Positions 1 through 56,158 of a stretch of 64,000 nt of DNA are shown here, piece after piece. The stretch lies in assembly GCA_964035575.1 (NCBI GenBank), contig OZ037839.1, positions 1,240,001-1,304,000 of the forward strand, in the 5' to 3' direction. Source of the stretch: Rhynchopus sp. YZ270_cl-10 (taxonomy: Eukaryota). Every line of letters starts with the position of its first letter. Position 1 is the stretch's first letter. Made by a program: the position numbers and the translations under genes. The notes under the pieces were generated by a model that saw nothing but the letters and a program-made list of their open reading frames with translations, was not told where the DNA came from and did not search any database.

Positions 1-1052
1 TGACGGAAATTGGTGGCGACTTTTGTTCGTCCTGCACCTCGTTGGAAATGATTGACTTGACAGCACTGCACAGGGTTGTGAAGGTAGGTCACCGCTTTCT
101 AAGGAGCTGCACCTCGCTGAGAAGTATCGACCTCTCAGCTTTTGGCAATGTCACAGACATTGAGTCAGGGTTTCTTATTCACTGCTCATCATTGAAAGCA
201 GTTGATTTATCAGTGTTGCGCAGCATCACACACATTTATAACCGCTGGATGGAAGACTGCTGTGCGTTGACAACAGCAGACTTATCAGGAATGAGCAATG
301 TTACGCAGATTGATGAAGGTTTCCTGCAAGATTGCACGTCCTTGACAACACTGGACATGTCAGGTTTTGGCAGGGACACAGGGATCCAGCAGCACAACTT
401 CCTGCACAACTGCAACGCACTCACAACAGTCGTCTTGCCAGGCAACATCGACATTGACGAGATGTTGTCTCTCCCGAATGGAGACCCTAGAATGAGCACC
501 TACAAGGAGGCCTTCTATGTACGTGTGCGTGAGATTTACGCAAGGTTTACGGAACAGTTCGAAGATGTGCGGATAGAAGCTTTTGAGGCAGTACGAACAG
601 ACGTGTCTGGAAGTGCAAGACAATGTATTGCATTGAAAGCAGGACAAGAGAGAGAAGGGTTTGGTGCAAGCACACGAGTACGACTACAAATAAAGAGAGA
701 ATTCATAGGGTGGGGTGCAGGACGAACAAGAGCAGGACAAGCAGGAGGGTTTGGGGCAGGGCAAACAGGGGCAGGACAGACAGAAACAGTACAAGCAGGA
801 GGATTTGGAGAGTTTGGGGCAGGACAAGCAGGAACAGGACAAGCAGGAGGGTTTGGGGCAGGGCAAACAGGGGCAGGACAGACAGAAACAGTACAAGCAG
901 GAGGATTTGGAGAGTTTGGGGCAGGACAAGCAGGAGCAGGACAAACAGGAGGATTTGGAGGGTTTGGTGCAGGACAAGCAGGAGGATTTGGTGATTTGTG
1001 TGAAGAACACTTGGGTGAACCTATTGAACTGCATTTTTGGATACACCTGTGA
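1..1052 (+). CDS. UBL-LRR family A protein copy A1 (5' part outside window); 25-aa LRRs plus C-terminal GFGAGQ repeat tail
   Basis: Frame is open from the window start; LRRs and the GNIDIDEMLSLP...CIALKAGQ block match the paralogs at 4538, 6900 and 14514; tail of GFG(A/E)/AGQ repeats ends EEHLGEPIELHFWIHL*. Confidence 0.85.
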   Translation, partial: TEIGGDFCSSCTSLEMIDLTALHRVVKVGHRFLRSCTSLRSIDLSAFGNVTDIESGFLIHCSSLKAVDLSVLRSITHIYNRWMEDCCALTTADLSGMSNVTQIDEGFLQDCTSLTTLDMSGFGRDTGIQQHNFLHNCNALTTVVLPGNIDIDEMLSLPNGDPRMSTYKEAFYVRVREIYARFTEQFEDVRIEAFEAVRTDVSGSARQCIALKAGQEREGFGASTRVRLQIKREFIGWGAGRTRAGQAGGFGAGQTGAGQTETVQAGGFGEFGAGQAGTGQAGGFGAGQTGAGQTETVQAGGFGEFGAGQAGAGQTGGFGGFGAGQAGGFGDLCEEHLGEPIELHFWIHL

Positions 1053-1572
1053 ACACTTGGGAGAATCTTATTGACCCTCTCCGGACGGATGATGACAATA
1101 TAGCCACACGCTTGCCCTGTACGGGCAGTATACATCACGTAGCATGCTTGCCTTTGAAGAGACCTCATCTCGTCACCCTTTCAAAGCTCCCGTAGGCCTT
1201 CCGAATGGAAAGAACGCAGCAAACAAGAGCTGGGAACGTGTGACTGAGTGTGGGGATGCGTTCAAGAATTAAACTCTTCCCCCCAAACCCCCTTTCATCT
1301 CTAGTTTTCTTTATCCAAACGTCGAGTGGACGCGTAATAATTTTATTTTGGGACTTTCATTTTTGAGGTGTGGAAGGCATAGGCGTATCAAGCAAGAAAG
1401 AATAGGGATTTTTTATTGTTTATTATTTGTTTTTGTCACCAGAATGCAAGGCACTGTAAGTGCGTTATATCGGTTTGAAAGTACTCTAAACAAAAAAGGT
1501 GGCCGTCGGGCTGCTATTTCTTTTTACCTCCTCCTTTGGCTGGGGAAAAACAAAGTACCACCATATTCATAG

Positions 1573-1944
1573 ATGGTAGTCGGCCCATCTGCAGGACAAG
1601 CAGGAGCAGGACAAACAGGAACAACACAAGCAGCAGGATTTGGAGCGTTTGGGGCAGGACAAACAGGAGGAGGACAAACAGGAACAGTACAAGCAGTAGG
1701 ATTTGCAGGGTTTGGGGCAGGACAAGCAGGAGCAGGACAAACAGGAACAACACAAGCAGTAGGATTTGCAGGGTTTGGGGCAGGACAAGCAGGAGCAGGA
1801 CAAACAGGAACAACACAAGCAGGAGGATTTGCAGGGTTTGGGGCAGGACAAGCAGCAACAGGACAAACAGCAGGAGGACAAGCAGGAGGATTTGAAGAAC
1901 ACTTTGGTGAACCTATTGAACTGCATTTTTGGATACACCTGTGA
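1573..1944 (+). pseudogene. Orphan duplicate of the family A FG-repeat tail
   Basis: GFGAGQ repeats and the EEHFGEPIELHFWIHL* ending match copy A1, but no LRR coding sequence lies upstream. Confidence 0.65.
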
Positions 1945-4537: not shown

Positions 4538-5956
4538 ATGGAACTGTGTGTGCAGGGATATGATGAAAACAAATACGTGATTGAGGTGGGTGAGAAGGAC
4601 ACAACGGAGACGATGCGGGAGAAGGTGGCGTCTGCAACAGGGTTGTGCGAAGACAGCTTCCGCATGGGCTTCGGAGGGAAGGAGGAAGGAGAGGACATCA
4701 CAGAACTGAGTGCTGGAGACACAGTCGTGTTGACGAAGTCGACGAAGTACCAATCTGTTGAGGAACTTCGTGCCTTGGGTGAGACAGACATTTCCGAAGC
4801 GAGGTTGGCGACTGTGAAGGATCCTGAGGTGGCTTCTCTGCTTCTTCAGGCGGAGGTTGCGACTGTTATTCCGGAGCTGTTCTTGAGCGAAGCATCGTTT
4901 ACGAGACTTGATCTCTCTGCTGTGTCTGGTGTGACACGAATTGAGGAAGGCTTCCTCTCCGGGTGTGCGTTTGTGGAAACCGTTGACTTGTCGGGATTGT
5001 GCAAGGTTACGCACATTGAGGATGGCTGTCTCTCTATCTGCCCATCGTTGACAAGGCTTGACGTGTCAGGGTTCACTGGTGTGACGGTGATAGGGGACTC
5101 GTTCCTCGCAGGAAGCGACGTCACAAATCTTGACTTATCCCATATGACGAGTGTGACGAAGGTTGGTGAAGGCTTTCTTGTATCCTGCAGCTCGTTGAAA
5201 AGGATTGACATCTCAGGATGGCGCAGAATCACACACATTGAGGACAGCTTCTTCTCTCACTGCACCTCGTTGGCAACCATTGATTTGTCAGCTTTTTGCA
5301 GTGTCATGAAGATCGACTCCGACTTTCTCTCCAACTGCTCGTCGTTGACCACCATCAGCTTTTCAGGGATGACCAATGTGACGGAAATTGGGAACCAGTT
5401 TTGTAGGGCCTGCACCTCGTTGGAAACGATTGACTTGTCAGCACTGCACAAAGTTGCGAAGGTGGGTGACTACTTTCTCTGGTATTGCACCTCGCTGGGA
5501 AGTATCGACCTTTCAGCTTTTGGCAGCATCACACACATTGAGGACTGCTGGATGGAATACTGCTCCGCGTTGACAACAGCAGACTTATCAGGAATGAGCA
5601 ATGTTACGCAGATTGATACACATTTCCTGCAAGACTGCAAATCCTTGACCACGCTGGACATGTCAGGTTTTGGCACGGACACAGAGATTCAGTGTAACTT
5701 CCTGCTCAACTGCAACGCACTCACAACAGTCGTCTTGCCAGGCAACATCGACATTGACGAGATGTTGTCTCTCCCGAATGGAGACCCTAGAATGAGCACC
5801 TACAAGGAGGCCTTCTATGTACGTGTGCGTGAGATTTACGCAAGGTTTACGGAACAGTTCGAAGATGTGCGGATAGAAGCTTTTGAGGCAGTACGAACAG
5901 ACGTGTCTGGAAGTGCAAGACAATGTATTGCATTGAAAGCAGGACAACATGCATAG
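4538..5956 (+). CDS. UBL-LRR family A protein copy A2 (472 aa; one LRR fewer, FG tail replaced)
   Basis: N-terminus MELCVQGYDENKYVIEVGEKDTTETMREKVASATGL aligns with the ubiquitin fold pattern; xIxxxFLxxCxxLxxxDLS repeats; intronless ORF. Confidence 0.85.
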   Translation: MELCVQGYDENKYVIEVGEKDTTETMREKVASATGLCEDSFRMGFGGKEEGEDITELSAGDTVVLTKSTKYQSVEELRALGETDISEARLATVKDPEVASLLLQAEVATVIPELFLSEASFTRLDLSAVSGVTRIEEGFLSGCAFVETVDLSGLCKVTHIEDGCLSICPSLTRLDVSGFTGVTVIGDSFLAGSDVTNLDLSHMTSVTKVGEGFLVSCSSLKRIDISGWRRITHIEDSFFSHCTSLATIDLSAFCSVMKIDSDFLSNCSSLTTISFSGMTNVTEIGNQFCRACTSLETIDLSALHKVAKVGDYFLWYCTSLGSIDLSAFGSITHIEDCWMEYCSALTTADLSGMSNVTQIDTHFLQDCKSLTTLDMSGFGTDTEIQCNFLLNCNALTTVVLPGNIDIDEMLSLPNGDPRMSTYKEAFYVRVREIYARFTEQFEDVRIEAFEAVRTDVSGSARQCIALKAGQHA

Positions 5957-6899: not shown

Positions 6900-8468
6900 A
6901 TGGAACTGTGTGTGCAGGGATATGATGATGAAACCAAATTCGTGATGGAGGTGGGTGAGAACGACACAACGGAGACGATGCGGCAGAAGGTGGCGTCTGC
7001 AACAGGGTTGTGCGAAGACAGCTTCCGCATGGGCTTCGGAGGGAAGGAGGAAGGAGAGGACATCACAGAACTGAGTGCTGGAGACACAGTCGTGTTGACG
7101 AAGTCGACGAAGTACCAATCCGTTGAGACACTTCGTGCCTTGGGTGAGACAGACATTTCCGAAGCGAGGTTGGCGACTGTGAAGGATCCTGAGGTGGCTT
7201 CTCTGCTTCTTCAGGCGGAGGTTGCGACTGTTACTCCGAACTGGTTCTTGTACCAAGCATCGTTTACGAGACTTGATCTCTCTGCTGTGTCTGGTGTGAC
7301 ACGAATTGCGTACGGCTTCCTCTCCGGGTGTGGGTCGGTGGAAACCGTTGACTTGTCGGGATTGTGCAACGTTACCCACATTGGGGATGGCTGTCTCTCT
7401 GACTGCACATCGTTGACAAGCCTTGACGTGTCCGGGTTCACTGGTGTGACGGTGATAGGGGACTCGTTCCTCCGAGGAAGTGGCGTCACAAATCTTGACT
7501 TATCCGCGATGACGAGTGTGACGGAGATTGGTATAAAATTTCTTATCTCCTGCAAGTCGTTGAAAAGGATTGACATCTCAGGATGGCGCAGAATCACACA
7601 CATTAACAACCTCTTCCTCCAGAGCTGCACCTCGTTGGCAAACATTGATTTGTCAGCTTTTTGCAATGTCACGAAGATCGGCTACCAATTTCTCTTCAAC
7701 TGTTCGTCGTTGACCACCATCAGCTTTTCAGGGATGACGAATGTGACGGAAATGGGTGACGACTTTTGTTCGGGCTGCACCTCGTTGGAAACGATTGACT
7801 TGACAGCACTGCACGGAGTTGTGAAGGTGGGCGCCGAATTTCTTACGAGATGCACCTCGCTGGGAAGTATCGACCTCTCAGCTTTTGGCAATGTCGCAGA
7901 CATCGGGCACAAATTTCTTTTTCAGTGCTCATCATTGAAATCAGTTGATTTATCAAAGTTGCTCAGTATCACACACATTAAGCGCGACTGGTTGCAAGGG
8001 TGCTCCGCGTTGACAACAGCAGACTTATCAGGAATGAGCAATGTGAGGGAAATTGGTGCAGAATTCCTGCAAGATTGCACATCCTTGACCACGCTGGACG
8101 TGTCAGGTATTGACAGGCACACAGGGATCCAGCAGTACTTCCTGCACAACTGCAACGCACTCACAACAGTCGTCTTGCCAGGCAACATCGACATTGACGA
8201 GATGTTGTCTTTGCCGAAAGGAGACCGTGCAAGGAGCAACTACACGCAGTCCTTCTCTGCACGTGTGCGTGAGATTTACGCAAGGTTTATGGAACAGTTC
8301 GAAGATGTGCGGATCGAAGCTTTTGAGGCAGTACGAACAGACGTGTCTGGAAGTGCAAGACAATGTATTGCATTGAAAGCAGGACAAGAGAGAGAGAAGG
8401 GATTGATGCATGGGTTTGGAACAGGACAAACAGGAGGAGGACAAACAGGAACAGTACAAGCAAAATGA
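6900..8468 (+). CDS. UBL-LRR family A protein copy A3; FG tail truncated by an early stop
   Basis: ATG at 6900 in the same context as paralogs (GAAACAATGGAACTG); degenerate FG-repeat DNA continues after the stop to ~8745. Confidence 0.85.
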   Translation: MELCVQGYDDETKFVMEVGENDTTETMRQKVASATGLCEDSFRMGFGGKEEGEDITELSAGDTVVLTKSTKYQSVETLRALGETDISEARLATVKDPEVASLLLQAEVATVTPNWFLYQASFTRLDLSAVSGVTRIAYGFLSGCGSVETVDLSGLCNVTHIGDGCLSDCTSLTSLDVSGFTGVTVIGDSFLRGSGVTNLDLSAMTSVTEIGIKFLISCKSLKRIDISGWRRITHINNLFLQSCTSLANIDLSAFCNVTKIGYQFLFNCSSLTTISFSGMTNVTEMGDDFCSGCTSLETIDLTALHGVVKVGAEFLTRCTSLGSIDLSAFGNVADIGHKFLFQCSSLKSVDLSKLLSITHIKRDWLQGCSALTTADLSGMSNVREIGAEFLQDCTSLTTLDVSGIDRHTGIQQYFLHNCNALTTVVLPGNIDIDEMLSLPKGDRARSNYTQSFSARVREIYARFMEQFEDVRIEAFEAVRTDVSGSARQCIALKAGQEREKGLMHGFGTGQTGGGQTGTVQAK

Positions 8469-9016: not shown

Positions 9017-12000
9017 CAGGGCTTCCCGCAGGATCTGGGGTTTTGGCCTCCCAGGGGGACCAGCCAAAAAAAGGTGAAAATTTTTTTTTTTTCGCGCCTT
9101 GTTGTGTGTGGTATGTAGCATTAACGCTGACTCTACGTTACGTTACGCGCCTTTACGCACTACGGACGCTCCCACTGACTACTTCTCTGAAGAACGTAGT
9201 GGGGGGTTATTTGCAAAAAATTGAAGCTGAAACTTAGTTTCTGGTCTTTTTCAGGCACTATGTCGCCAAAAACGCTGGAAAAAAGAAAGGTAAAAAGAAA
9301 AAGCAGTTTCCTGCTCTGAAGAAAGTAGTGAACGGGGGGGGATCCTTTTCTCAATTTTGTTTACACTGATGGGGTGGGGTGGGGGAACCGCAATGCAACA
9401 TAGCTCGATGACGACACACGAAAAGGGTCAAAGGCTGCACACATAAAACTGATCCATACAATAAAATTCTCTCATGCTACAGTACCAAAATCGCGGCGTC
9501 TTCCTGTCTTTGGTGCCGCTTTGATGAATCGATCGACAACGCTGTTCAAAAACGGAAGAGAAGGCACCTGAGGTCCCTCAATTTTTATCCTCATGAGGGC
9601 ATCTAACGTCGTGATCAGCATGCTGGCCCTGAGACGCGTCAGTACCAGTTTCAAAACTGAAAATGCACGCTCCACCACAGCCGTACTACCAGGCAAGCAT
9701 GCGACACGAAGAAGGAAATCAACTGCTTTGGGCAACGTCAACGAATGGCACGCAACTGCATAACGCACAGCATCTGAGAACGTGTACTTCGCAGAGTTCG
9801 CGCTTGCTTCCCGCTGTTGCCTTATTTTTGTGAGGAGCAAGGTAAGCTGGAACCGTATTGTTTGCTTGTCATGATCGTTGTAAGGGGGGTCGTAGCTCTT
9901 CGTTTCCGGATAACCATCTAGTTTCTGGGACCGCTTGGTGCAGAAGAAGTGAGTAAGGTTGTGTATTAAGGCTTCGTCTTCATCGGGCTTGTCACCGAAG
10001 TCTCGCTGCGGATCCAGTACTGCGATGTTTGTGAATATTGCGGAATCACAAAACCTTGCGGTAAGCTGTGCGATTAGATCTTTCACGTAGCTTCTAGTGG
10101 TGGTTTCGTGAAACCGAAGAAAAGCTTCCGGACAGACCTTCTTCCCCGACAAGCGAGCCACAACAGTGTTGTAGTACGTAGTCCATTGAAGATACTTGTA
10201 CTCTGCACCGTTCTCCACACCTTCCGCGAGTCGCTCGAGTGATTCCTGTGTGGACTTCAGCAGGTCAGGAATCATGACCAATCCAGCACAAGATTCTTGC
10301 AACTTCAGGTTCAGCGGCTTCATCACGATGAAGACGCTGGCGAGGAGGAAGTTTGCCGCAACGAACCTCGGCGACTCCAGCGTTTCCAACAGTCCCCTGG
10401 TGATGGCATCGCCGTCCTGCTGGTGGATCTGGCTGAGGGCGTGGTGGATGGAGGGGAGGGTGTTCAGCAGCGTCGTGCACCCTTTCTCGTTGGTGAGCCA
10501 ACGGGTGTCGGCCCCCTTCTCCAGCTGCAGGTCTGGCAGGTTCAGCCACTCCACTACCTGCTTGAGCTGGTTGCAGGCGTTGGACACGGCCAAGACTCGT
10601 TCACCGGAACTGCGAACGTACCAGTAGATGTCGCGCTGGCTGTTGATCGCACTCATCACGTCAACATGGCTCTGCCCAGCCCACTGCAGAGAGAGGTTCA
10701 GCTGGTGGTTTCTGCACCAGACGTAGATAATATAAATATTTTGAAAATACTTAAACCTCGTCTGCACACCAGAAAACCCACCCGACATCGTGTTGGTTCC
10801 ATCGAACCCAACACCAACAATCTTCTTCCCGCCAATCATCTCGCGGGCGGGTGGCTGCTCGTCCGTCTCCAGCGGTACCCCTCTCGCACGGTGCACGTCC
10901 ATGTAGGACACTCTCTCTGCAATGTCGGTGTACACACCTGCCGCACCCTTCCCATCTGTCAACGGTGCGATACCCCAAAAATGCTCGAAGCTCTCGCCTT
11001 TGCCATCAACGCCACGTATGTACACCGACAATTCAGAGCGACGGCAGATATCTTGCGTCTCATCAGCAAGCACAGTAATGTACTTACTTTGTCGCACGCG
11101 GGACTCGATGCGAAACTGCAGCTCGGTGTTAATCGCGTCCAGAAGCTCCTGCATTGTCCGCCTGCTAGTGTAGGAAGCGTTCTTCGTTTCAATGAAGGCC
11201 TTCAGGTCGGCGTCCCACCTTGCCGAGTGCTGTGCGAGGCTGGCGTAATTGGTGCTGTGGCTCACCCCTCGCTTCACCAACCAGTACAAATTGGCTGTGA
11301 GCTTCAGCAGCTGACGCCGGTTCATGCTCTGATGCGCTTTGGATGTCTTTACAATCATCCCGGTCCCGCTGTTCCGTGTCCTCTCTGCCTCCACAGCTGC
11401 CACGTGGCTCGCAGTTTTCGCGTGTTCAGGACACTTCTTTTTTGTGATTCGTGTCACATCACAACATGGGACTTCGAAAAACGAGCCATCTGCATCAGGA
11501 CGCTTCGCGCTGATAGCCAGCGCAAGATGCTTCTTGCACAACCTGCACCAGTACCCTCTCTTTGATGCGAAGACCCACTCGTACTTATCAGCGGCGTTCA
11601 GGAACCTTTGCTGCTCAGAGAATGCCAACTTATTGGGGGTGTTGTATTCCGTGGGTTCTTCTGAGCTCTCGCTGTCTGCCATGTCGTTCTCGTTCTCGTT
11701 GTTGTCATCCTCCTCGTCGTCATCCTCGTCGTCGTCGTCCTCGTCCTCGTTGGTGTTGGTGTTGTTCTCGTTGTTGTCCTTTACGTTGCCATCCTCGTCG
11801 ACGACCGCAACATCTTCGCACTCCAAGGGGTTCCCTGCTAGGAATGACACCACTCCGTCGCACACGTCTCTGTCATCTGCCTCGGGCTCCACACCCTTTT
11901 TTTTCTCTTCGCAGTTCTTCTGAGGCTTCTTTCTTGGAATGTGGGGGTAGGGGATTTCGAACTTCCAGTCGGCTCCCCCCTCCGGTTCCTCCTGGTTGTC

Positions 12001-13818
12001 CAGCACCCACAAGTCCGCATCCTTCGTACCCCCCTGCTGACGGGATTTTGCCTTCGGAGTGAGAACGGTGTGGTACTTTTTTGCGGCCGGTTTCGGTGCA
12101 GCCTTCGAAGAAGGAGGAGCTGATGAAGGGGGGACGTTGGTATTCGACAAGGCTGCCGTCACTTCCGGAAGAGGTTCAGGTGGGGGTGTTTCCCTTGCCC
12201 TGCGATCGTTCTCGTCTCTTTCCTTTACTCGCTGGATCACTGCGTCCTTCTTCTCGTAGCCCATCCCCGAGATCTTCCACGACATTCCACGAAGTGCCAC
12301 TTGAACCTTAGTCTCTTCCCCAGTCCACGTGTTGTAGTAGCGGTTGAAGTCGTGTTTTTTTATTTCTTGAACAATATCTTCAGCAGTTGCGTTTTCGTCC
12401 AGCACAACCTTCCTCACCGCGGCCTGCTCACGGGCTGCGACCACGTCCCATGTGGCATACTCGTGGTTCTTTGCAACCGTTATTTTCTGCCTCTTCGGGG
12501 CCTGAGACGATATCTGGGACTCCGCCGGTCGCTTTGCAAATTCCATTATGGAAACCTGTCTTGGTCCGGTGGACTTTTTTGGTGCCATCTTTTTTTTCCC
12601 CCTGTTAGTTGCCTGTATTTGGATGCGCGGGGACGGGAGGGTAGGGAAAATTAAAAAAAATGTGGAAAATTCCTAACAGGCAGCCTCGGAACACTCAAGG
12701 GCAGGCTGGTCCCCCCTGGTCCCCCCTGGTCCCAGGGGTGGGCGGGCACCCTGGGGTTTTTTCCATTTTTTTGGATCGGGCACCCGGGTTTTTTCTAAGG
12801 ATTTTTACAGGCAATTTTTGGATTTTTCTGAGAACACGCTTTACGCTGCCCCCCTGCCGAAATATGTTCTCGGTTTTCCCTTTTCGGGGGGGTTTTTTTG
12901 GCCTTTTTCGGGTTTTCCGAGCTTTTACCCTCACTGTCACGGGGTCATTTTGAAAAAATGGGCAAGTTCTTGGCTGATACACGTTTTGGTCATTACCACC
13001 AGCGAGTCGCTTAACGGGGTTAAATTGAACTATGATTCTGGACCCACTGTAACGTGAACCGCCCTCGAAATTCAAGAAGGGGTCCTAAACCCGGGCGCGC
13101 TACGCGCTACGTGCACCCCGAATGTTCGGGAGGAATATAAAACGGCGCCGCAGGCGGAAAAAATAGGGTACAGTATAAAAAATGCAGCTTTACACCACAA
13201 AGCCACTCAGCGAATCCTTTTTTGCAGAGCAAAAAAGGGAAAATGGCGCCGCAGGCAAATTTTTTTATAAGGTGCAGCCCTGGGCGGCGCGGAATTATTT
13301 TCTTTTTCGTTCCTCAGTGCCGTCAGGGCCTGCCCAAGTGCGCCAACGCAATGCACTTTGCTACCACCGTGGTGGCGAGCACTTGCAGCACTGCAAGAAG
13401 CAAGGTTCCCTCGATGTTTGCAGTCACACGCACCATCTGTATTATTATTTATTCTGTTGTGCGGGAGGTGAAAGGGACGAGACCGAAGGAAGCGGGGTGG
13501 AGACTTTTTTTGTTCATTATGGCTTGGTACCGCACTCCCCGGGCAGAGTGCGAGTTATTCTCAGCCACACGGGGCCCGGCCCGACCCCCCAGACTTTTTC
13601 CCCTAAGAAAAACCCTTAGAAAAATAAATTTTCCCCGTATAAAATCCTTAGAAAAAATAATTTTCCCCCCGTGTAAAATCCTTAGAAAAAATAAAATAAA
13701 ATCAAAATCGGGCCCCGGGCACCCACTTTAGGCCCAGGCCTGCCTGGTCCCCCCTTATTTTTTTTTTTCTCCCAGGGGGACCACTGGTCCCCCCTGGTCC
13801 CCCCTGTGGGAAGCCCTG
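9017..13818 (-). mobile_element. Autonomous hAT-superfamily DNA transposon (4802 bp) with 5-bp TSD
   Basis: TIRs CAGGGCTTCCC(G/A)CAGG at 9017-9032 and 13803-13818; TSD TGTGG at 9012-9016 and 13819-13823; empty paralogous site at 2831-2850; subterminal GGTCCCCCCTGG repeats. Confidence 0.95.
9472..12588 (-). CDS. hAT transposase (1038 aa, intact, intronless)
   Basis: Zn-finger-like WCRLC...H...H, ADETQD, FDGTNTMSG, CRNHQLNL (CxxH), TRW and C-terminal dimerisation motif VERAFSVLKLVLTRLRASM...LDALMRIKIEGP. Confidence 0.92.
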   Translation of the reverse strand: MAPKKSTGPRQVSIMEFAKRPAESQISSQAPKRQKITVAKNHEYATWDVVAAREQAAVRKVVLDENATAEDIVQEIKKHDFNRYYNTWTGEETKVQVALRGMSWKISGMGYEKKDAVIQRVKERDENDRRARETPPPEPLPEVTAALSNTNVPPSSAPPSSKAAPKPAAKKYHTVLTPKAKSRQQGGTKDADLWVLDNQEEPEGGADWKFEIPYPHIPRKKPQKNCEEKKKGVEPEADDRDVCDGVVSFLAGNPLECEDVAVVDEDGNVKDNNENNTNTNEDEDDDDEDDDEEDDNNENENDMADSESSEEPTEYNTPNKLAFSEQQRFLNAADKYEWVFASKRGYWCRLCKKHLALAISAKRPDADGSFFEVPCCDVTRITKKKCPEHAKTASHVAAVEAERTRNSGTGMIVKTSKAHQSMNRRQLLKLTANLYWLVKRGVSHSTNYASLAQHSARWDADLKAFIETKNASYTSRRTMQELLDAINTELQFRIESRVRQSKYITVLADETQDICRRSELSVYIRGVDGKGESFEHFWGIAPLTDGKGAAGVYTDIAERVSYMDVHRARGVPLETDEQPPAREMIGGKKIVGVGFDGTNTMSGGFSGVQTRFKYFQNIYIIYVWCRNHQLNLSLQWAGQSHVDVMSAINSQRDIYWYVRSSGERVLAVSNACNQLKQVVEWLNLPDLQLEKGADTRWLTNEKGCTTLLNTLPSIHHALSQIHQQDGDAITRGLLETLESPRFVAANFLLASVFIVMKPLNLKLQESCAGLVMIPDLLKSTQESLERLAEGVENGAEYKYLQWTTYYNTVVARLSGKKVCPEAFLRFHETTTRSYVKDLIAQLTARFCDSAIFTNIAVLDPQRDFGDKPDEDEALIHNLTHFFCTKRSQKLDGYPETKSYDPPYNDHDKQTIRFQLTLLLTKIRQQREASANSAKYTFSDAVRYAVACHSLTLPKAVDFLLRVACLPGSTAVVERAFSVLKLVLTRLRASMLITTLDALMRIKIEGPQVPSLPFLNSVVDRFIKAAPKTGRRRDFGTVA

Positions 13819-14513: not shown

Positions 14514-16247
14514 ATGGAACTGTGTGTGCAGGGATATGATGAAAACAAATTCGTGATTGAGGTGGGTGAGAACGACACAACGGAGACGATGCGGCAGAAG
14601 GTGGCGTCTGCAACAGGGTTGTGCGAAGACAGCTTCCGCATGGGCTTCGGAGGGAAGGAGGAAGGAGAGGACATCACAGAACTGAGTGCTGGAGACACAG
14701 TCGTGTTGACGAAGTCGACGAAGTACCAATCTGTTGAGACACTTCGTGCCTTGGGTGAGACAGACATTTCCGAAGCGAGGTTGGCGACTGTGAAGGATCC
14801 TGAAGTGGCTTCTCTGCTTCTTCAGGCGGAGGTTGCGACTGTAATTCCGAACTCGTTTTTGTCGCTAGAATCGTTTACGAGACTTGATCTCTCTGCTGTG
14901 TCTGGTGTGACACGCATCGAGCACTACTTCCTCTACTGTTGTGGTTCAGTGGAAACCGTTGACTTGTCGGGATTGTGCAACGTTACGCACATCGTGGATG
15001 CCTGTCTCTCTTGCTGCACATCGTTGACAAGCCTTGACGTGTCAGGGTTCACTGGTGTGACGGTGATAGGGAACAGGTTCCTCCAAAGAAGTGGCGTCCT
15101 ACATCTTGACTTATCCGCGATGACGAGTGTGACGGAGGTTGGTGCAAACTTTCTCTACCACTGCGAGTCGTTGGAAAGGATTGACATCTCAGGATGGCGC
15201 AGAATCACGCACATTGAGGACGGCTTCCTCCATCACTGCACCTCGTTGGCAACCATTGATTTGTCAGCTTTTTGCAGTGTCACGAAGATCGACTCCTACT
15301 TTCTCTTCAACTGCAAGTCGTTGACCACCATCTGCTTTTCAGGGATGACGAATGTGACGGAAATTAACGACAGCTTTTGTTCGTCCTGCACCTCGTTGGA
15401 AACGATTGACTTGACAGCACTGCACAAAGTTGTGAAGGTAGGACACCGCTTTCTGAGGGGCTGCACCTCGCTGAGAAGTATCGACCTGTCAGCTTTTGGC
15501 AATGTCGCAGCCATTGGGAGAGGGTTTCTTTTTGAGTGCACATCATTGAAAACAGTTGATTTATCGGTGTTGCGCAGCCTAACACACATTGAGCAACACT
15601 GGATGGATGAGTGCTTAGCGTTGACAACAGCAGACTTATCAGGAATGAGCAATGTTACGCAGATTGATGCATATTTCCTGCAAGATTGCACATCCTTGAC
15701 CACGCTGGACGTGTCAGGTTTTGGCAGGGACACAGAGATCCAGCAGTACTTCCTGCTCAACTGCAACGCACTCACAACAGTGGTCTTGCCAGGCAACATC
15801 GACATTGACGAGATGTTGTCTCTGCCGAATGGAGACCCTAGAATGAGCACCTACAAGGAGGCCTTCTATGTACGTGTGCGTGAGATTTACGCAAGGTTTA
15901 CGGAACAGTTCGGAGGTGTGCGGATAGAAGCTTTTGAGGCAGTACGAACAGACGTGTCTGGAAGTGCAAGACAATGTATTGCATTGAAAGCAGGACAAGA
16001 GAGAGAAGGGATTGATGCAAGCACAAGAGGACAAAAAAGAGGAACAAAAATCACAAAAAGGGGACGACAAACAGGAGAAACACAAGCAGAAGTATTTGGA
16101 GTGTTTGGTGCAGGACAAACAGAGAGGAGGAAACGGAGGAGGCTTGGTGCGGGACAAAGAGGAGATTTGCCAACAAGAGCGTTTGGAGGGTTTGGGGCAG
16201 GACAAACAGGGGGATTTGGAGGGTTTAGGCAGGAGAAACAGGAGTAG
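14514..16247 (+). CDS. UBL-LRR family A protein copy A4 with diverged basic/FG tail
   Basis: ATG at 14514 in paralog context; colinear with A3 through the LRR region. Confidence 0.85.
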   Translation: MELCVQGYDENKFVIEVGENDTTETMRQKVASATGLCEDSFRMGFGGKEEGEDITELSAGDTVVLTKSTKYQSVETLRALGETDISEARLATVKDPEVASLLLQAEVATVIPNSFLSLESFTRLDLSAVSGVTRIEHYFLYCCGSVETVDLSGLCNVTHIVDACLSCCTSLTSLDVSGFTGVTVIGNRFLQRSGVLHLDLSAMTSVTEVGANFLYHCESLERIDISGWRRITHIEDGFLHHCTSLATIDLSAFCSVTKIDSYFLFNCKSLTTICFSGMTNVTEINDSFCSSCTSLETIDLTALHKVVKVGHRFLRGCTSLRSIDLSAFGNVAAIGRGFLFECTSLKTVDLSVLRSLTHIEQHWMDECLALTTADLSGMSNVTQIDAYFLQDCTSLTTLDVSGFGRDTEIQQYFLLNCNALTTVVLPGNIDIDEMLSLPNGDPRMSTYKEAFYVRVREIYARFTEQFGGVRIEAFEAVRTDVSGSARQCIALKAGQEREGIDASTRGQKRGTKITKRGRQTGETQAEVFGVFGAGQTERRKRRRLGAGQRGDLPTRAFGGFGAGQTGGFGGFRQEKQE

Positions 16248-16754
16248 GGAAGGCAGGACTATTTGGAGGGTTTGTTGACTTGTGTGAAGAACACTTCGGT
16301 GAAAATATAGAACTTCATTTCCACAAAAATTGTTCAGCCTTTTCGATCGACTTTGTTTATTTCCTTCATGGTGTAGCACGTCGAGTAGGTTGTGGTGTAC
16401 ATTGGCATTAGCAGGAGGGTTTGGAGGGTTAGGAGCAGGACAAACAGGAGGATTTGTGTGAAGAACACTTTGGTGAACCTATTGAACTACATTTTTGGAT
16501 ACACCTGTGAACACTTGGGGAAAACGTTATTTACTCTTTCCCATCGTGTGATGGGAAGAATATTGAAGCTGTGGTGTGGGGAGCTGTTTTGTGTGGTTTT
16601 GCTTCATCTTTATCAGTCGTTTTGTTGTATTTTGTTTTGCGTTGTTTCGCCCCCTTGATCGTAGCGACTCTTTTCGAGATACAAAGTATCCCCTTCCCAC
16701 CCCTCCTTCCACAAAACACAAATGTGTTTTGGCGCGTCTCCCACCGCACCACCA

Positions 16755-21082: not shown

Positions 21083-21125
21083 TAGACCTCCACCTCCCAC
21101 CTTGCCCACCTACCCACAGAGCATT

Positions 21126-35248: not shown

Positions 35249-35283
<35 letters not shown>

Positions 35284-39082: not shown

Positions 39083-41434
39083 ATGGAACTGACTATCCAG
39101 GTCTTTGGGAAGGACTTCGTGATTGAGGTGGGTGAGAACGACACAACGAAGACGATGCGGCAGAAGGTGGCGTCTGCAACAGGGTTGTGCGATGACAGCT
39201 TCCGCATGGGCTTCGGAGGGAAGGAGGAAGGAGAGGACATCACAGAACTGAGTGCTGGAGACACAGTCGTGTTGACGAAAACGATGAAGTACGAAGCCAT
39301 ATCAGCTCTTCATGCATTGGGTGAGACAGACATCACAGCAGAAAGGTTGCAGCAGGTGGAGGATCCGAAGGTGGCCAGCTTGCTTCTTCAGGCAGAAGTT
39401 GCGACTGAGATTCCAGAAGACTTCTTCTCACGTAGTAACGTAACGCGCATTGGTTTCAGTTGCGTACCCAATGTGGATGACAACTGTGGCATCACACTGC
39501 ACCTGCCTGCATTACCCTGCGTCACCACGATTGGTGACGGGTTTCTCTCCGAGTGCACAACGTTGTCGGAAGTAGACCTGACCGGCCTGCAAGCAGTCAC
39601 CACGATTAGTGACGGGTTTCTCTCCTCCTGCGAAACGTTGTCGAAAGTCGACCTCAGCTGCCTGCATTCAGTCACCACGATTGGTGACAGTTTTCTCTAC
39701 AACTGCACAACGTTGTCGGAAGTCGACCTCACAGGCCTGCAATCAATCACCACGCTTGGTGACAATTTTCTCTCCCGCTGCACATCGTTGTCGAAAGTCG
39801 ATCTCAGCTGCCTGCATTCAGTCACCACGATTGGTGACAGTTTTCTCTACAACTGCCCAATGTTGTCGGAAGTCGACCTCACAGGCCTGCAATCGGTCAC
39901 CACGCTTGGTGACAATTTTCTCCCCCACTGCACATCGTTGTCGAAAGTCGGTCTCAGCTGCCTGCCTTCAGTCACCACGATTGGTGACTATTTTCTCTAC
40001 AACTGCACAACATTGTCGGAAGTAGACCTCACTGGCTTTCAAGCAGTCACCACGATTGGTGACAAGTTTCTCTACAACTGCACAACGTTGTCGGAGGTGG
40101 ACCTCACTGGCTTTCAAGCACTCACCGCGATTGGTAACGAATTTCTCTCCTACTGCACATCGTTGTCGAAAGTCGGCCTCAGCTGCCTGCAAGCAGTCAC
40201 CACGATTGGTGACAATTTTCTCTCCTCCTGCACAACGTTGTCGGAAGTAGACCTGACCGGCCTGCAAGCAGTCACCGCGATTGGTGACAAGTTTCTCTAC
40301 AACTGCACAACATTGTCGCAAGTAGACCTCACTGGCTTTCAAGCACTCACCGCGATTGGTAACGAATTTCTCTCCTACTGCACATCGTTGTCGAAAGTCG
40401 GCCTCAGCTGCCTGCAAGCAGTCACCACGATTGGTGACAATTTTCTCTCCAACTGCACAACGTTGCCGAAAGTAGACCTCACCGGCTTTCAAGCAGTCAC
40501 CACGATTGGTGACAAGTTTCTCTACAACTGCACAACGTTGTCGGAGGTGGACCTCACTGGCTTTCAAGCACTCACCGCGATTGGTAACGAATTTCTCTCC
40601 TACTGCACATCGTTGTCGGAAGTAGACCTGACCTCCCTGCAATCAGTCACCACGATTGGTGACAATTTTCTCTCCGACTGCACAACGTTGTCGGAAGTCG
40701 ACCTGGCCGGCCTGCAAGCAGTCACCACGATTGGTGATGATTTTCTCTCCTACTGCACAACGTTGTCGGAAGTAGACCTGACCTCCCTGCAATCAGTCAC
40801 CACGATTGGTGACAATTTTCTCTCCGACTGCACAACGTTGTCGGAAGTCGACCTGGCCGGCCTGCAAGCAGTCACCACGATTGGTGATGATTTTCTCTCC
40901 TGGTGCGAAACGTTGTCGAAAGTAGACCTCACCGGCCTGCAATCAATCACCACGATTGGTGACGAATTTCTCTCCTGGTGCAAAAAGTTGTCTGAAGTAG
41001 ACCTGACCGGCCTGCAAGCAGTCGCCGCGATTGGTGACAGTTTTCTCTCCTACTGCACATCGTTGTCGGAAGTCGACCTCAGCTTCCTGTATTCAGTCAC
41101 CACGATTGGTGCCAATTTTCTCTCCAACTGCACAATGTTGTCGAAAGTAGACCTGACCGGCCTGCAAGCAGTCACCACGATTGGTGACTGGTTTCTCTGC
41201 AACTGCGAAACGTTGTCGAAAGTCGACTTAAGAGGCCTGCAAGCAGTCTCCACGATTGGTGACAATTTTCTCTGCCACTGCACAACGTTGTCGAAAGTAG
41301 ACCTGACCGGCCTGCAATCAGTCACCACGATTGGTGACAAGTTTCTCTCCGACTGCACATCGTTGTCGAAAGTCGACGGAATGGACAAGTGTAGCAACGT
41401 TGTACGCAGCAGACTAGGTGACGTTGGTTTTTAG
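39083..41434 (+). CDS. UBL-LRR family B protein copy B1 (783 aa, 25 LRR units)
   Basis: UBL-like N-terminus; regular 75-bp repeats VTTIGDxFLxxCTTLSxVDLTGLQx; cap DGMDKCSNVVRSRLGDVGF. Confidence 0.9.
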   Translation: MELTIQVFGKDFVIEVGENDTTKTMRQKVASATGLCDDSFRMGFGGKEEGEDITELSAGDTVVLTKTMKYEAISALHALGETDITAERLQQVEDPKVASLLLQAEVATEIPEDFFSRSNVTRIGFSCVPNVDDNCGITLHLPALPCVTTIGDGFLSECTTLSEVDLTGLQAVTTISDGFLSSCETLSKVDLSCLHSVTTIGDSFLYNCTTLSEVDLTGLQSITTLGDNFLSRCTSLSKVDLSCLHSVTTIGDSFLYNCPMLSEVDLTGLQSVTTLGDNFLPHCTSLSKVGLSCLPSVTTIGDYFLYNCTTLSEVDLTGFQAVTTIGDKFLYNCTTLSEVDLTGFQALTAIGNEFLSYCTSLSKVGLSCLQAVTTIGDNFLSSCTTLSEVDLTGLQAVTAIGDKFLYNCTTLSQVDLTGFQALTAIGNEFLSYCTSLSKVGLSCLQAVTTIGDNFLSNCTTLPKVDLTGFQAVTTIGDKFLYNCTTLSEVDLTGFQALTAIGNEFLSYCTSLSEVDLTSLQSVTTIGDNFLSDCTTLSEVDLAGLQAVTTIGDDFLSYCTTLSEVDLTSLQSVTTIGDNFLSDCTTLSEVDLAGLQAVTTIGDDFLSWCETLSKVDLTGLQSITTIGDEFLSWCKKLSEVDLTGLQAVAAIGDSFLSYCTSLSEVDLSFLYSVTTIGANFLSNCTMLSKVDLTGLQAVTTIGDWFLCNCETLSKVDLRGLQAVSTIGDNFLCHCTTLSKVDLTGLQSVTTIGDKFLSDCTSLSKVDGMDKCSNVVRSRLGDVGF

Positions 41435-52468: not shown

Positions 52469-53320
52469 ATGGAACTGACTATCCAGGTCTTTGGGAAGGA
52501 CTTCGTGATTGAGGTGGGTGAGAACGACACAACGAAGACGATGCGGGAGAAGGTGGCGTCTGCAACAGGGTTGTGCGAAGACAGCTTCCGCATGGGCTTC
52601 GGAGGGAAGGAGGAAGGAGAGGACATCACAGAACTGAGTGCTGGAGACACAGTCGTGTTGACGAAAACGATGAAGTACGAAGCCATATCAGCTCTTCATG
52701 CATTGGGTGAGACAAACATCACAGCAGAAAGGTTGCAGCAGGTGGAGGATCCGAAGGTGGCCAGCTTGCTTCTTCAGGCAGAAGTTGCGACTGAGTTTCC
52801 AAACGGCTTCTTCTCAGGTAGTGCCGTAACGCGCATTGGTTTCAGTTGCGTACCCAATGTGGATGACAACTGTGGCATCACACTGCACCTGCCTGCATTA
52901 CCTTGCGTCACCACGATTGGTGACTGGTTTCTCGCCAACTGCGAAACGCTGTCGCAAGTGGACCTGACCGGGCTGCAATCAGTCACCACGATTGATGACA
53001 ATTTTCTCTCCAACTGCACAGTGTTGTCGAAAGTCGACCTCACCGGCTTGCAAGCAGTCACCACGATTGGTGACAATTTTCTCTCCGGCTGCACGTCGGT
53101 GTCGAAAGTCGACATCACCGGCCTGCATTCAGTCACCACGATTGGTCACGGGTTTCTCTCCTCCTGCGAAACGTTGTCGAAAGTGGACCTGGGCGGCCTG
53201 CAATCAGTCACCACGATTGGTGACTGGTTTCTCTACGACTGCACAACGTTGTCGAAAGTCGACGGAATGGACAAGTGTAGCAACGTTGTACGCAGCAGAC
53301 TAGGTGACGTTGGTTTTTAG
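52469..53320 (+). CDS. UBL-LRR family B protein copy B2 (283 aa, 5 LRR units)
   Basis: Near-identical N-terminus and cap to B1; exactly 20 x 25 aa shorter. Confidence 0.88.
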   Translation: MELTIQVFGKDFVIEVGENDTTKTMREKVASATGLCEDSFRMGFGGKEEGEDITELSAGDTVVLTKTMKYEAISALHALGETNITAERLQQVEDPKVASLLLQAEVATEFPNGFFSGSAVTRIGFSCVPNVDDNCGITLHLPALPCVTTIGDWFLANCETLSQVDLTGLQSVTTIDDNFLSNCTVLSKVDLTGLQAVTTIGDNFLSGCTSVSKVDITGLHSVTTIGHGFLSSCETLSKVDLGGLQSVTTIGDWFLYDCTTLSKVDGMDKCSNVVRSRLGDVGF

Positions 53321-53779: not shown

Positions 53780-53966
53780 ATGCCGTCATCGATAGATGCA
53801 TTTACACAAGCATGCAAGGAGCGAGGTATGAGGAAGCCCACTGAACCTGACCTCGCAGAAGCTGTACAACGGCGACCTCTCGCCTGACAGCGTCAAGGGC
53901 AACGAAGTTGTGGACCGTGCACATGACAAAGGGATTGCCGTGCAGTTAGTCACTTCAAACAAAAGG
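53780..53966 (+). pseudogene. Internally deleted duplicate of PKAR exon 1 (smaller remnant at ~51441-51465)
   Basis: Matches parts of 56454-56843 with two large deletions and is followed by the same GTATGTC intron-1 start. Confidence 0.85.
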
Positions 53967-54781
53967 GTATGTCTTAGAGAGGAGGTAGGGGGAGGGAGAG
54001 AGAGGGGGTCTAGGGAAGAATCAGTGTACCTGTTGGTTGTTGTTGAGTGAAGTCCTGTGAGGTCGAAAACCTAGAAAACGGTGGGGTAGGGTTGGGTGCT
54101 GTCTTTTACGTACGGGTGGAGTGAGATCGGGGCCCAGAAGGGGGAAGGTCTAGGGAATAGAGTTGAATGCGAAGAATTGTGTTTTGTTCCCTCCTGTGTT
54201 GCGGTGTAGAAGGGCAGAAAAAAGCAATAACGTTATGGGAGGAAAATAGTCGGGGCTTTTTCCTTATTTAATCCCGCTTGCGGGGGGTGATGTGCAGCTT
54301 GCAAAGCGTACTCCTTCTATTTGCTCTCTTTTAAGGGTGCTGTGGAGAATATAGTGTGTCTGCTATCTTTGTGATAGTAGTCTATAAGCAAACAAAGTCT
54401 TATCCAATCTTGCGGGAGGAGTGATGTGTAGGGTGTAAGCATTCGGTCATTTGTATTTGTCGACCCTTTGCATGACCTCGACTGAGATGTGTTTTAGGAC
54501 GTTTCAACTACTCTTTTCATTTCTCGAGACCTTCCAAGACATAGCTTGCAGACAGAGGTGAAACCCCAACAGGGTTGGCCTGTGTGTCATTAGCATTGAT
54601 ACGTGCACCATTTTCCTGTCTAAAACCAAATGAAAAGACCCCCCTATCTCCCTCCTTTATGTCCCTATGTTCTTTCCCACCCGTCCTAATAGCAATGGAC
54701 TGGCAGGCGTGACACTTCGAGGAGCCGTGCTCTTCCTTACCCAACAACCCACCCGCAGAGATACATCAAGAGACACATAAA

Positions 54782-56158
54782 ATGGAACTGAATATCGAGG
54801 GCTTGGGGAAGGACTTCGTGATTGAGGTGGGTGAGAACGACACAACGGAGACGATGCGGCAGAAGGTGGCGTCTGCAACAGGGTTGTGCGAAGACAGCTT
54901 CCGCATGGGCTTCGGAGGGAAGGAGGAAGGAGAGGACATCACAGAACTGAGTGCTGGAGACACAGTCGTGTTGACGAAAACGATGAAGTACGAAGCCATA
55001 TCAGCTCTTCATGCATTGGGTGAGACAGACATCACAGCAGAAAGGTTGCAGCAGGTGGAGGATCCGAAGGTGGCCAGCTTGCTTCTTCAGGCAGAAGTTG
55101 CGACTGAGTTTCCAGAAAACTTCTTCTCAGGTAGTGACGTAACGCGCATTGGTTTCAGTTGCGTACCCAATGTGGATGACAACTGTGGCATCACACTGCA
55201 CCTGCCTGCATTACCCTGCGTCACCACGATTGGTGACGGGTTTCTCTCCTCCTGCGAAACGTTGTCGAAAGTCGACCTCAGCTGCCTGAATTCAGTCACC
55301 ACGATTGGTGACTTTTTTCTCTCCGACTGCACAACGTTGTCGGAAGTAGACCTGACCGGCTTGCAAGCAGTCACCGCGATTGGTCACGGGTTTCTGTCCT
55401 CCTGCGAAACGTTGTCGGAAGTGGACCTCAGCTGCCTGAATTCAGTCACCGCGATTGGTGACTGGTTTTTCCACGGCTGCACAACGTTGTCGAAAGTAGA
55501 CCTGACCGGCCTGCAAGCAGTCACCACGATTGGTGACAGTTTTCTCTCCTCCTGCGAAACGTTGTCGAAAGTGGACCTGACCGGCCTGCAAACAGTCACC
55601 ACGATTGGTGACTGGTTTCTCCACGGCTGCACAACGTTGTCGGAAGTAGACCTGACCGGCCTGCAAGCACTCACCACAATTGGTGACAGGTTTCTCTACA
55701 ACTGCACAACGTTGTCGGAAGTTGACTTCACCGGCCTGCAATCAGTCACCACGATTGGTAACGATTTTCTCTCCTCCTGCACAACGTTGTCGAAAGTTGA
55801 CTTCAGCGACCTGCAAGCAGTCACCACGATTGGTGGCAATTGTCTTTACAGCTGCACAACGTTGTCGAGAGTCAACCTGTCCGGCCTGCAAGCACTCACC
55901 ACGATTGGTGACAGTTTTCTCTACAACTGCACATCGTTGTCGGAAGTAAACTTCACCGGCCTGCATTCAGTCACCACGATTGGTGACGATTTTCTCTCCT
56001 CCTGCACAACGTTGTCGAAAGTGGACCTGACCGGCCTGCAAGCAGTCACCGCGATTGGTGATGATTTTCTGTCCTTCTGCACAAGGTTGTGTATAGTGGA
56101 CGGAAGGGACAAGTGTAGCAACGTTGTACGCAGCAGACTAGATGACGTTGGTTTATAG
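54782..56158 (+). CDS. UBL-LRR family B protein copy B3 (458 aa, 12 LRR units)
   Basis: Same architecture; exactly 7 x 25 aa longer than B2. Confidence 0.88.
   Translation: MELNIEGLGKDFVIEVGENDTTETMRQKVASATGLCEDSFRMGFGGKEEGEDITELSAGDTVVLTKTMKYEAISALHALGETDITAERLQQVEDPKVASLLLQAEVATEFPENFFSGSDVTRIGFSCVPNVDDNCGITLHLPALPCVTTIGDGFLSSCETLSKVDLSCLNSVTTIGDFFLSDCTTLSEVDLTGLQAVTAIGHGFLSSCETLSEVDLSCLNSVTAIGDWFFHGCTTLSKVDLTGLQAVTTIGDSFLSSCETLSKVDLTGLQTVTTIGDWFLHGCTTLSEVDLTGLQALTTIGDRFLYNCTTLSEVDFTGLQSVTTIGNDFLSSCTTLSKVDFSDLQAVTTIGGNCLYSCTTLSRVNLSGLQALTTIGDSFLYNCTSLSEVNFTGLHSVTTIGDDFLSSCTTLSKVDLTGLQAVTAIGDDFLSFCTRLCIVDGRDKCSNVVRSRLDDVGL

What the first reader, a model, noticed from the sequence alone, without database searches (positions are those of the whole stretch)
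1..56158. Diversifying UBL-LRR gene family: candidate intracellular variable-receptor system
Seen: eight intronless genes. The seven with a visible N-terminal region pair a ubiquitin-like domain lacking a terminal Gly-Gly and a short helical linker with 25-aa LRRs, and none has a signal peptide. Known: integral UBL domains (Rad23/Dsk2, Elongin B) couple cargo to the proteasome or E3 ligases, and LRR solenoids bind targets via exposed residues. Inference: a constant effector module joined to a fast-changing recognition module resembles an innate-immune repertoire, e.g. against viruses or endosymbionts. I do not recognise this architecture as a described family.
Basis: partly seen in the sequence, partly recalled or inferred. 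Interest (0 to 1): 0.88.

Follow-up and report, generated by a model that had tools for sequence, protein, structure and literature searches.

The report
Hypervariable ubiquitin-like–LRR family in a protist
A protist, likely a diplonemid, has eight genes here, and likely over 250 in its genome, that join a swappable ubiquitin-fold domain to leucine-rich repeats with one fast-changing stripe of residues, likely a kit of binding proteins that recognise invaders inside the cell.

Summary
Eight uninterrupted + strand reading frames carry BspA/TpLRR-class 25-aa repeats (5 to 25 per gene); seven show an N-terminal domain that models as ubiquitin without a terminal Gly-Gly. One correction: gene 5 is the frameshifted remnant of a longer B-box/coiled-coil/UBL/LRR gene. 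New here: (1) at least 225 plus about 40 related proteins, all from unnamed long contigs that look like one assembly; (2) strong positive selection (omega about 11, 2dlnL 96-99) on repeat positions 5-7, 10, 11, a loop stripe, not the main strand, repeated in 46 paralogue pairs from other loci; (3) the UBL is swapped or converted as a unit, with a sharp junction at its last strand; (4) relatives end in NLS-like, CaaX-like or hydrophobic tails; (5) the Ile44 patch is absent and the UBL is acidic, so the Rad23/Dsk2 proteasome-shuttle reading is not supported. Best reading: intracellular variable binding proteins in an arms race with foreign proteins (0.5). No target, partner or expression is shown. 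A new variant of a known kind.

The parts
3..1052 (+). Gene 1 (subfamily A), 5' part off the window: LRRs, C-terminal helical segment, Gly/Phe-rich tail
1573..1944 (+). Orphan 3' remnant: Gly/Phe-rich tail like that of gene 1, no LRR or UBL in front
4538..5956 (+). Gene 2 (subfamily A), 472 aa: UBL (4538-4738), three-helix cap, 11 LRR units (one 75-bp unit fewer than genes 3 and 4), short tail
6900..8468 (+). Gene 3 (subfamily A), 522 aa: UBL, cap, 12 LRR units, tail; further Gly/Phe repeats follow in another frame to about 8695
9017..13818 (-). hAT-family DNA transposon inserted in the spacer of the tandem array (16-bp terminal inverted repeats, 5-bp duplication, transposase ORF 9472-12588)
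14514..16247 (+). Gene 4 (subfamily A), 577 aa: UBL (14514-14714), cap, 12 LRR units, Gly/Phe-rich tail with a basic cluster
16722..17026 (+). B-box 1 frame of gene 5; about 51 codons holding B-box 2 are missing relative to P0144
   Evidence: contigs of runs X1 and X3 match 16690-16983 and 16690-16996 with no difference
17002..17051 (+). Perfect 25-bp tandem duplication that shifts the frame between the B-box and the rest of gene 5
   Evidence: not covered by the laid contigs
17071..18789 (+). Gene 5 (long form, likely pseudogene or shortened): coiled coil, internal UBL (from 17422), cap, 12 LRR units, poly-Glu end; about 90% identical to P0144 downstream of the break
19751..19822 (+). Second, truncated copy of the start of the B-box frame
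39083..41434 (+). Gene 6 (subfamily B), 783 aa: UBL, cap, 25 LRR units; three pairs of units are identical at DNA level (8=14, 9=12, 16=18)
52469..53320 (+). Gene 7 (subfamily B), 283 aa: UBL (aa 1-66), helices 68-103, 5 LRR units, C-terminal helix; the modelled protein
54782..56158 (+). Gene 8 (subfamily B), 458 aa: UBL, cap, 12 LRR units; UBL codons 12-65 identical to gene 4 of subfamily A

Best explanation
This is a tandemly expanded family of proteins that join a ubiquitin-fold domain to BspA-type leucine-rich repeats with one positively selected stripe of residues, and they likely work inside the cell as variable binding proteins that would recognise fast-changing foreign proteins. Shown: the layout [optional B-box, B-box, coiled coil]-UBL-three-helix cap-25-aa solenoid-variable tail; three routes of diversification (amino-acid change at repeat positions 5-7, 10, 11; change in repeat number; exchange of the UBL at the end of its last strand). 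Inferred: the varied stripe is the binding face; the tails send subfamilies to nucleus, membranes or cytosol; the acidic UBL is a shared docking handle for one host partner (an E3, deubiquitinase, p97 cofactor or scaffold) reached by a surface other than the Ile44 patch; binding alone may block the target, since some members have lost the UBL. The likely targets are effectors of bacterial endosymbionts or proteins of viruses and mobile elements. None of the inferred steps was tested.
For: Codon models on genes 1-4 (323 codons): M2a beats M1a by 2dlnL 96-99 on all three trees, omega2 about 11 on 18-19% of sites; 19 of 25 sites with posterior over 0.95 lie at repeat positions 5-7, 10, 11. Core positions are conserved (pN 0.024 against pS 0.14), so the genes are not drifting. 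In 46 disjoint close pairs from other loci, N-terminal mismatch is 228 of 5150 while positions 6, 7, 10, 11 differ in 84, 111, 99, 100 of 158. With these four positions fixed, pN exceeds LRR-wide pS in 6 of 6 window pairs. Subfamily B varies at 7, 10, 11 with almost no synonymous change. Family size: 225 proteins plus 42 long forms. No signal-peptide-like stretch; of 150 relatives 25 have a bipartite-NLS pattern, 29 end in Cxxx (21 CSVS), 15 have a hydrophobic tail: all point inside the cell. B-box/coiled-coil forms resemble RING-less TRIM proteins. Diplonemids carry secretion-system-bearing endosymbionts (10.1101/719211, passages).
Against: No target, partner, location or expression is shown. 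Positive selection on a binding stripe fits offence or adhesion as well as defence. The codon test is my own implementation, uses four recombining paralogues and naive posteriors; against synonymous change at the same codons only 4 of 6 pairs are significant, and pairs are not independent. The UBL lacks the Ile44 patch, shows pN about equal to pS among close copies and is missing or cut in 9 of 42 long forms, so a conserved effector role for it is unproven. 81 of 150 relatives have no tail tag, and genes 6-8 have none. Many copies are broken (32 cut after the N-terminal part; gene 5).
Confidence: 0.5

Rival explanations
1. Offensive effectors: the UBL is a Crinkler-type header that carries variable LRR binders into prey or host cells, many to the nucleus.
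For: [quoted passage not shown] Here 15 of 32 cut modules end at profile positions 67-72, the A/B junction is at codon 66, and the UBL sits on an unrelated P-loop protein in 2 of 12 members of that family. D. papillatum is described as predatory (PMC10161547, passages).
Against: No nuclease, kinase or other toxin domain in the window genes; the P-loop fusions show no nuclease family; no Crinkler Pfam family was hit. CaaX-like ends, hydrophobic tails and an internal UBL behind B-boxes fit a resident protein better.
Confidence: 0.18
2. Surface adhesins or sensors like the BspA-like proteins of Trichomonas and Entamoeba, exported without a signal peptide, that tell prey or substrates apart.
For: Same LRR class. 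T. vaginalis has 911 such genes, 193 with transmembrane tails; some Entamoeba members have CAAX boxes and one was found at the surface (PMC2843621, passages); an Entamoeba member without a signal peptide is a surface receptor (PMC5349171, passages). 21 relatives end in CSVS and 15 have hydrophobic tails.
Against: UBL and B-box domains are intracellular modules (established knowledge); 25 of 150 have an NLS pattern; prenyl and tail anchors normally face the cytosol; 'ubiquitin' occurs 0 times in PMC2843621.
Confidence: 0.12
3. Substrate adaptors of the cell's own ubiquitin system with routine regulatory jobs.
For: Adaptor-plus-LRR layout; ubiquitin fold; B-box/coiled-coil forms.
Against: Omega about 11 and repeat scrambling are not expected for binders of conserved self proteins; Ile44 patch absent; no relative outside the one set of contigs.
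Confidence: 0.1
4. A neutral or transposon-driven expansion, largely pseudogenes; variation comes from conversion and slippage alone.
For: Broken copies and remnants, a hAT insertion in the array, identical repeat units and an identical UBL tract; synonymous change is somewhat raised at the variable codons (dS 0.23 against 0.13).
Against: Strong purifying selection at core positions next to pN far above pS at a fixed stripe, in two subfamilies and 46 outside pairs; 7 of 8 frames in the window show no break.
Confidence: 0.1

Closest known systems
BspA-like (TpLRR, Pfam LRR_5) families of Trichomonas vaginalis and Entamoeba histolytica
   Same: Same repeat class and fold (TpLRR 6mlx, 4gt6, 4fs7, 4h09 top the Foldseek list); large lineage-specific expansion; many without signal peptide; CAAX ends, transmembrane tails and glycine-rich domains occur (PMC2843621, PMC5349171, passages).
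   Different: No ubiquitin-like or B-box N-terminus is mentioned in the passages seen; read there as surface proteins of parasites; here NLS patterns and a measured selected stripe.
Crinkler (CRN/CR) effectors with ubiquitin-like header
   Same: [quoted passage not shown]
   Different: C-terminal part is a repeat binder, not NTPase/nuclease toxin; no sequence family hit; UBL can be internal or lost.
TRIM proteins (RING-B-box-coiled coil plus variable binding domain) and nematode/plant F-box and BTB adaptor expansions (recalled, paper not held)
   Same: Constant adaptor joined to a positively selected binding domain; the long form has B-box, B-box, coiled coil.
   Different: No RING, F-box or BTB; binding domain is a TpLRR solenoid; adaptor is an atypical UBL.
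Tetrahymena 90-bp-exon LRR genes
   Same: Huge, young, recombining LRR repertoire in a free-living protist, proposed to resemble innate immunity (PMC6564038, passages).
   Different: Those use exon arrays and show mostly purifying selection; these are unbroken frames of 75-bp units with site-specific positive selection and a UBL.
Rad23/Dsk2-type UBL shuttles
   Same: Integral N-terminal ubiquitin fold without Gly-Gly (Dsk2 UBL Z 10.2, tied with other ubiquitin folds).
   Different: Ile44 patch absent, acidic surface, no UBA domain, multicopy and fast-evolving.
Unnamed ubiquitin + DUF285 clusters of the ESM Atlas
   Same: Ubiquitin-like domain joined to a bacterial-type repeat.
   Different: Scores 0.76-0.86 are leads only; different repeat family; no alignment.

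Membership tests
TpLRR/BspA-like LRR class | LRR_5 profile above the curated cut-off | tested here: met
   8 of 8 genes, 55-312 bits against 27.7
TpLRR/BspA-like LRR class | TpLRR-type solenoid fold | tested here: met
   All 7 Foldseek hits at E<=0.001 are TpLRR/BspA-type chains
BspA-like surface proteins | Cell-surface location | not testable with these tools
   No signal-peptide-like stretch; 15 of 150 relatives have a hydrophobic tail
Integral ubiquitin-like domains | Ubiquitin-type beta-grasp fold | tested here: met
   rmsd 2.1 A over 71 residues; Z 10.3, rmsd 1.8 A over 66
Conjugatable ubiquitin-like modifiers | Gly-Gly at the end of the domain | tested here: not met
   0 of 167
Rad23/Dsk2 proteasome shuttles | Hydrophobic Ile44 patch | tested here: not met
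   G105, S33, T22, E17, C8 of 197; median net charge -9
Rad23/Dsk2 proteasome shuttles | UBA domain | tested here: not met
   No UBA hit in the window genes or the 69 relatives scanned
Crinkler/CR effectors | N-terminal UBL header with recombination at its end | tested here: met
   analogy only, no homology to CRN headers shown
Crinkler/CR effectors | C-terminal NTPase/nuclease or other toxin domain | tested here: not met
   LRRs only in 8 of 8 window genes; two outside P-loop fusions without a nuclease hit
Crinkler/CR effectors | Delivery into another cell | not testable with these tools
   needs experiment
TRIM proteins | B-box(es) followed by coiled coil | tested here: met
   zf-B_box hits in P0144, P0184, P0272, P0273; B-box pattern in 39 of 42; coiled coil judged by eye
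TRIM proteins | N-terminal RING | tested here: not met
   No RING hit in the long forms scanned
Variable immune receptor repertoires | Many paralogues with positive selection on one binding surface | tested here: met
Variable immune receptor repertoires | Recognition of invader molecules and protection | not testable with these tools
   no data
Diversity-generating retroelements | Adenine-specific change with template repeat and reverse transcriptase | tested here: not met
   Variable codons change at non-A positions too; no reverse transcriptase among the 16 window ORFs scanned

The most novel reading that the evidence does not exclude
A single-celled euglenozoan has built its own intracellular immune-receptor repertoire: several hundred TpLRR binders with a selected binding stripe, routed to nucleus, membranes and cytosol by different tails, plugged by recombination into a shared ubiquitin-fold handle or a TRIM-like B-box/coiled-coil platform that passes bound symbiont or virus proteins to destruction.
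Probability: 0.33. Interest if true: 0.86.

Novelty: new variant of a known kind. Interest (0 to 1): 0.66.

Why it matters
How free-living protists detect viruses and intracellular bacteria is largely open. Big LRR families are common in protists, but this one comes with a measured arms-race signature on a defined stripe, small proteins that model well, and a modular adaptor, so the question becomes testable: what binds the stripe, and what binds the UBL. It also points to the binding face of TpLRR solenoids being the loop stripe around the Phe-Leu motif, not the main strand, which is useful for BspA-like proteins of parasites and for binder scaffolds.

Tried and rejected
Whole-genome count: no genome is held for this window, so family size rests on protein searches. 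Expression: no RNA holder listed; the five runs behave as DNA (cover of spacers, no spliced joints); this says nothing on expression. The laid contigs do not cover 16998-17150, so the 25-bp duplication could not be checked independently. Range: no relative in metagenome contigs (0 of 264 pattern matches), viral contigs (0 of 128) or genome contigs (0 of 179); these scans need exact short patterns and the collections hold few protist genomes. Viral structure library: only separate LRR or ubiquitin matches, none clearly spanning both. ESM Atlas: no hit at 0.9 or more. The three-helix cap was not folded alone; rows span residues 1-72, so its fold is untested. The tails after the break points were not found in the window, so insertion versus intron was not settled. 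Diversity-generating retroelement rejected. P0208's P-loop part belongs to a separate 12-member family without nuclease: not a Crinkler toxin. Papers not held: Zhang et al. 2016 and the F-box/BTB paper; I cite the first only through the review PMC5289972. PMC10747355 and PMC11437800 (passages) and PMC12957317 (abstract) added only that LRR or Crinkler-like families also occur in other euglenozoans and free-living eukaryotes. Earlier findings of this scan: none. No complex prediction was run, as no candidate partner from this organism was in hand.
Full report
Host. The window is from an intron-bearing eukaryote: a DEAD-box helicase lies in pieces over 28559-35133 and a PKA regulatory subunit over 56454-64000. 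The latter's best solved relatives are 6ftf, 6flo and 6h4g (156-167 bits), above the Euglena chain (112 bits); I recall these three as trypanosomatid. A euglenozoan with long repeat-filled introns is likely a diplonemid (inference; PMC10161547, passages, describes such a genome). No whole genome is held.

Observation. Eight + strand frames carry BspA-type LRRs and seven a weak ubiquitin match. They form subfamily A (genes 1-4, 81-85% identical), subfamily B (genes 6-8) and a divergent gene 5. Repeats are 25 aa, VTxIGxxFLxxCxxLxxVDLSGLxx, 5 to 25 per gene. The model of gene 7 from a 79-sequence alignment (pLDDT 90.3) shows strands and helix of a beta-grasp at 1-66, helices at 68-78, 86-91, 95-103, then a solenoid with the main strand at repeat positions 17-19 and a short second strand at 3-4. 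Foldseek returns TpLRR/BspA chains for the repeats and ubiquitin (rmsd 2.1 A, 71 residues) for the N-terminus; VIA-align gives Z 10.3, tied among many ubiquitin folds. No Gly-Gly follows the domain in 0 of 167 modules.

Correction on gene 5. A B-box frame starts at 16722 and is cut by a perfect 25-bp duplication. Read through with X it aligns to P0144 in three blocks (39 of 58, 193 of 212, 315 of 350 identical), lacking about 51 residues that hold the second B-box. Contigs of two other runs match across that deletion with no difference; none covers the duplication. So gene 5 is a damaged member of a long form: B-box, B-box, coiled coil, UBL, cap, LRRs.

Family size and range. The N-terminal 115 residues find 225 proteins among 643 candidates (259-826 aa only); the 120 listed are all unnamed, 119 from ENA and one the window's own, on long contigs whose lengths recur. 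The long form finds 42 among 7991 candidates, all ENA; 39 of 42 show a B-box pattern. The profile search of 1.84 billion representatives gave 418 hits at E<=0.001; of the best 150, the multi-stretch hits I checked (2) are polyubiquitin-like and the 10 single-stretch hits I looked up are all ENA long-contig proteins. One assembly, or very close kin, is inferred, not shown. Nothing was found in the metagenome, viral or prokaryote collections.

Selection. Between genes 1-4, at homologous repeats, positions 5, 6, 7, 10, 11 differ in 144 of 210 comparisons (dN 0.66, dS 0.23); the other 20 positions in 97 of 840 (dN 0.06, dS 0.13); core positions have pN 0.024 against pS 0.14. Among 39 repeats of subfamily B, positions 7 and 11 each take 10 residues with almost one codon per residue. 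My own codon-model fit over 323 codons gives M2a over M1a by 2dlnL 96-99 on all three trees, omega2 about 11 on 18-19% of sites, and 19 of 25 high-posterior sites at positions 5-7, 10, 11; one of the 19 (codon 411) sits at an alignment indel. An outside check on 46 disjoint close pairs from other loci, chosen on N-terminal identity, gives 4.4% N-terminal mismatch but 84, 111, 99 and 100 of 158 at positions 6, 7, 10, 11, 68 of 158 at position 13, and 16, 45, 21, 20 of 158 at strand-face positions 16, 17, 19, 21. With positions 6, 7, 10, 11 fixed, pN (0.36-0.56) exceeds LRR-wide pS (0.09-0.21) in 6 of 6 window pairs, and same-codon pS in 4 of 6. Recombination can inflate the likelihood test, and pairs share genes. 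The stripe lies in the loop after the short strand, not on the main strand that most LRRs use; whether it is concave or convex was not determined.

Shuffling. Gene 6 has three pairs of identical 75-bp units, and some units are nearest to units in gene 8; gene 2 lacks exactly one unit. Genes 4 and 8 are identical over codons 12-65 and differ at about a third of bases from codon 66 on; laid contigs leave gene 4 at the same place into other caps. Across 197 modules, 117 of 697 pairs with near-identical UBL have a cap at most 75% identical, against 7 of 345 the other way. 15 of 32 cut modules end at profile positions 67-72 and 7 at 90-92; 5 of 42 long forms begin the match at 67-70, having lost the UBL, and 4 more lack part; 2 of 12 members of an unrelated P-loop family carry the UBL. 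The UBL is thus a mobile unit and the helices belong to the LRRs. Its constancy among close copies shows pN about equal to pS, so it reflects recent exchange.

The UBL surface and the tails. The Ile44 column holds Gly 105, Ser 33, Thr 22, Glu 17, Cys 8 of 197; median net charge is -9 against 0 for ubiquitin. Of 150 relatives with at least three repeats, 25 have a bipartite-NLS pattern, 29 end in Cxxx (21 CSVS), 15 have a hydrophobic tail, 1 a Gly/Phe tail, 81 none (pattern matches only; start codons of outside proteins are machine calls).

Mechanism. Shown: architecture, expansion, selected stripe, shuffling. Inferred: intracellular binders of fast-changing foreign proteins, addressed by their tails, with the UBL as a handle for a common partner (0.5). 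Rivals: Crinkler-like offensive effectors (0.18), surface adhesins (0.12), routine ubiquitin adaptors (0.10), neutral expansion (0.10). Diplonemid endosymbionts with secretion systems and effectors are known (10.1101/719211, passages), which gives a plausible opponent but no link.

What is known. BspA-like expansions are described in Trichomonas and Entamoeba (PMC2843621, PMC5349171, passages), LRR repertoires in Tetrahymena, mostly under purifying selection (PMC6564038, passages), giant-virus FNIP repeats with variable loop positions beside the strand (PMC9525666, passages), and UBL headers in Crinklers (PMC5289972, passages). The family is a member of the TpLRR class and has an integral UBL; it fails the tests for shuttles, Crinkler toxins and full TRIM proteins. 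No description of this architecture appeared in the listings of searches 13 (0 papers), 18, 57, 77, 86 and 95, nor in the main text or 7 supplementary files of the D. papillatum genome paper for the terms tried; subscription papers, Zhang et al. 2016 among them, were not searchable, and it may list similar UBL-repeat fusions.

Verdict. Real, larger and better supported than first seen on the diversification side, weaker on the proteasome side, untested on function. New variant of a known kind; interest 0.66.

Noticed in passing
window 9017-13818: Apparently intact hAT-family transposon (1038-aa transposase, 16-bp inverted ends) with a 5-bp target duplication, shorter than the 8 bp I recall as usual for hAT.
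   Followed up: partly
P0123, P0171, P0173 and P0165, P0166: Diverged paralogues are cut at the same codon (profile position 91) and continue with the same foreign tail, two tails in all: likely young mobile elements or introns with a preferred site in this family.
   Followed up: partly
P0158, P0187: UBL fused at its end to an OTU-bearing and to a reverse-transcriptase frame, likely retroelement insertions at the junction.
   Followed up: partly
P0208, P0313-P0323: A 12-member family of P-loop NTPases with an N-terminal hydrophobic segment, found only on the same kind of contigs; two carry the UBL.
   Followed up: partly
window 21060-26144: 1694-aa single-frame protein with a hydrophobic N-terminal stretch and no convincing Pfam family.
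   Followed up: no
window 36930-38096: Glycoside hydrolase family 18 gene, one frame, with a signal-peptide-like start.
   Followed up: no
window 46336-47028: Perfect 7-bp tandem repeat, 99 copies.
   Followed up: no
window 30871-31776 and 35272-36177; 29205-29677 and 32660-33131: Two pairs of 99% identical repeats in and beside the DEAD-box helicase gene, likely recent mobile elements in introns.
   Followed up: no
window 56454-64000: PKA regulatory subunit with an N-terminal LRR region, of the kinetoplastid type, split by several kb of repeat-rich intron.
   Followed up: partly
window 16431-16705 and 20507-20856: Further copies of the 3' end of subfamily A genes without coding part in front.
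   Followed up: no
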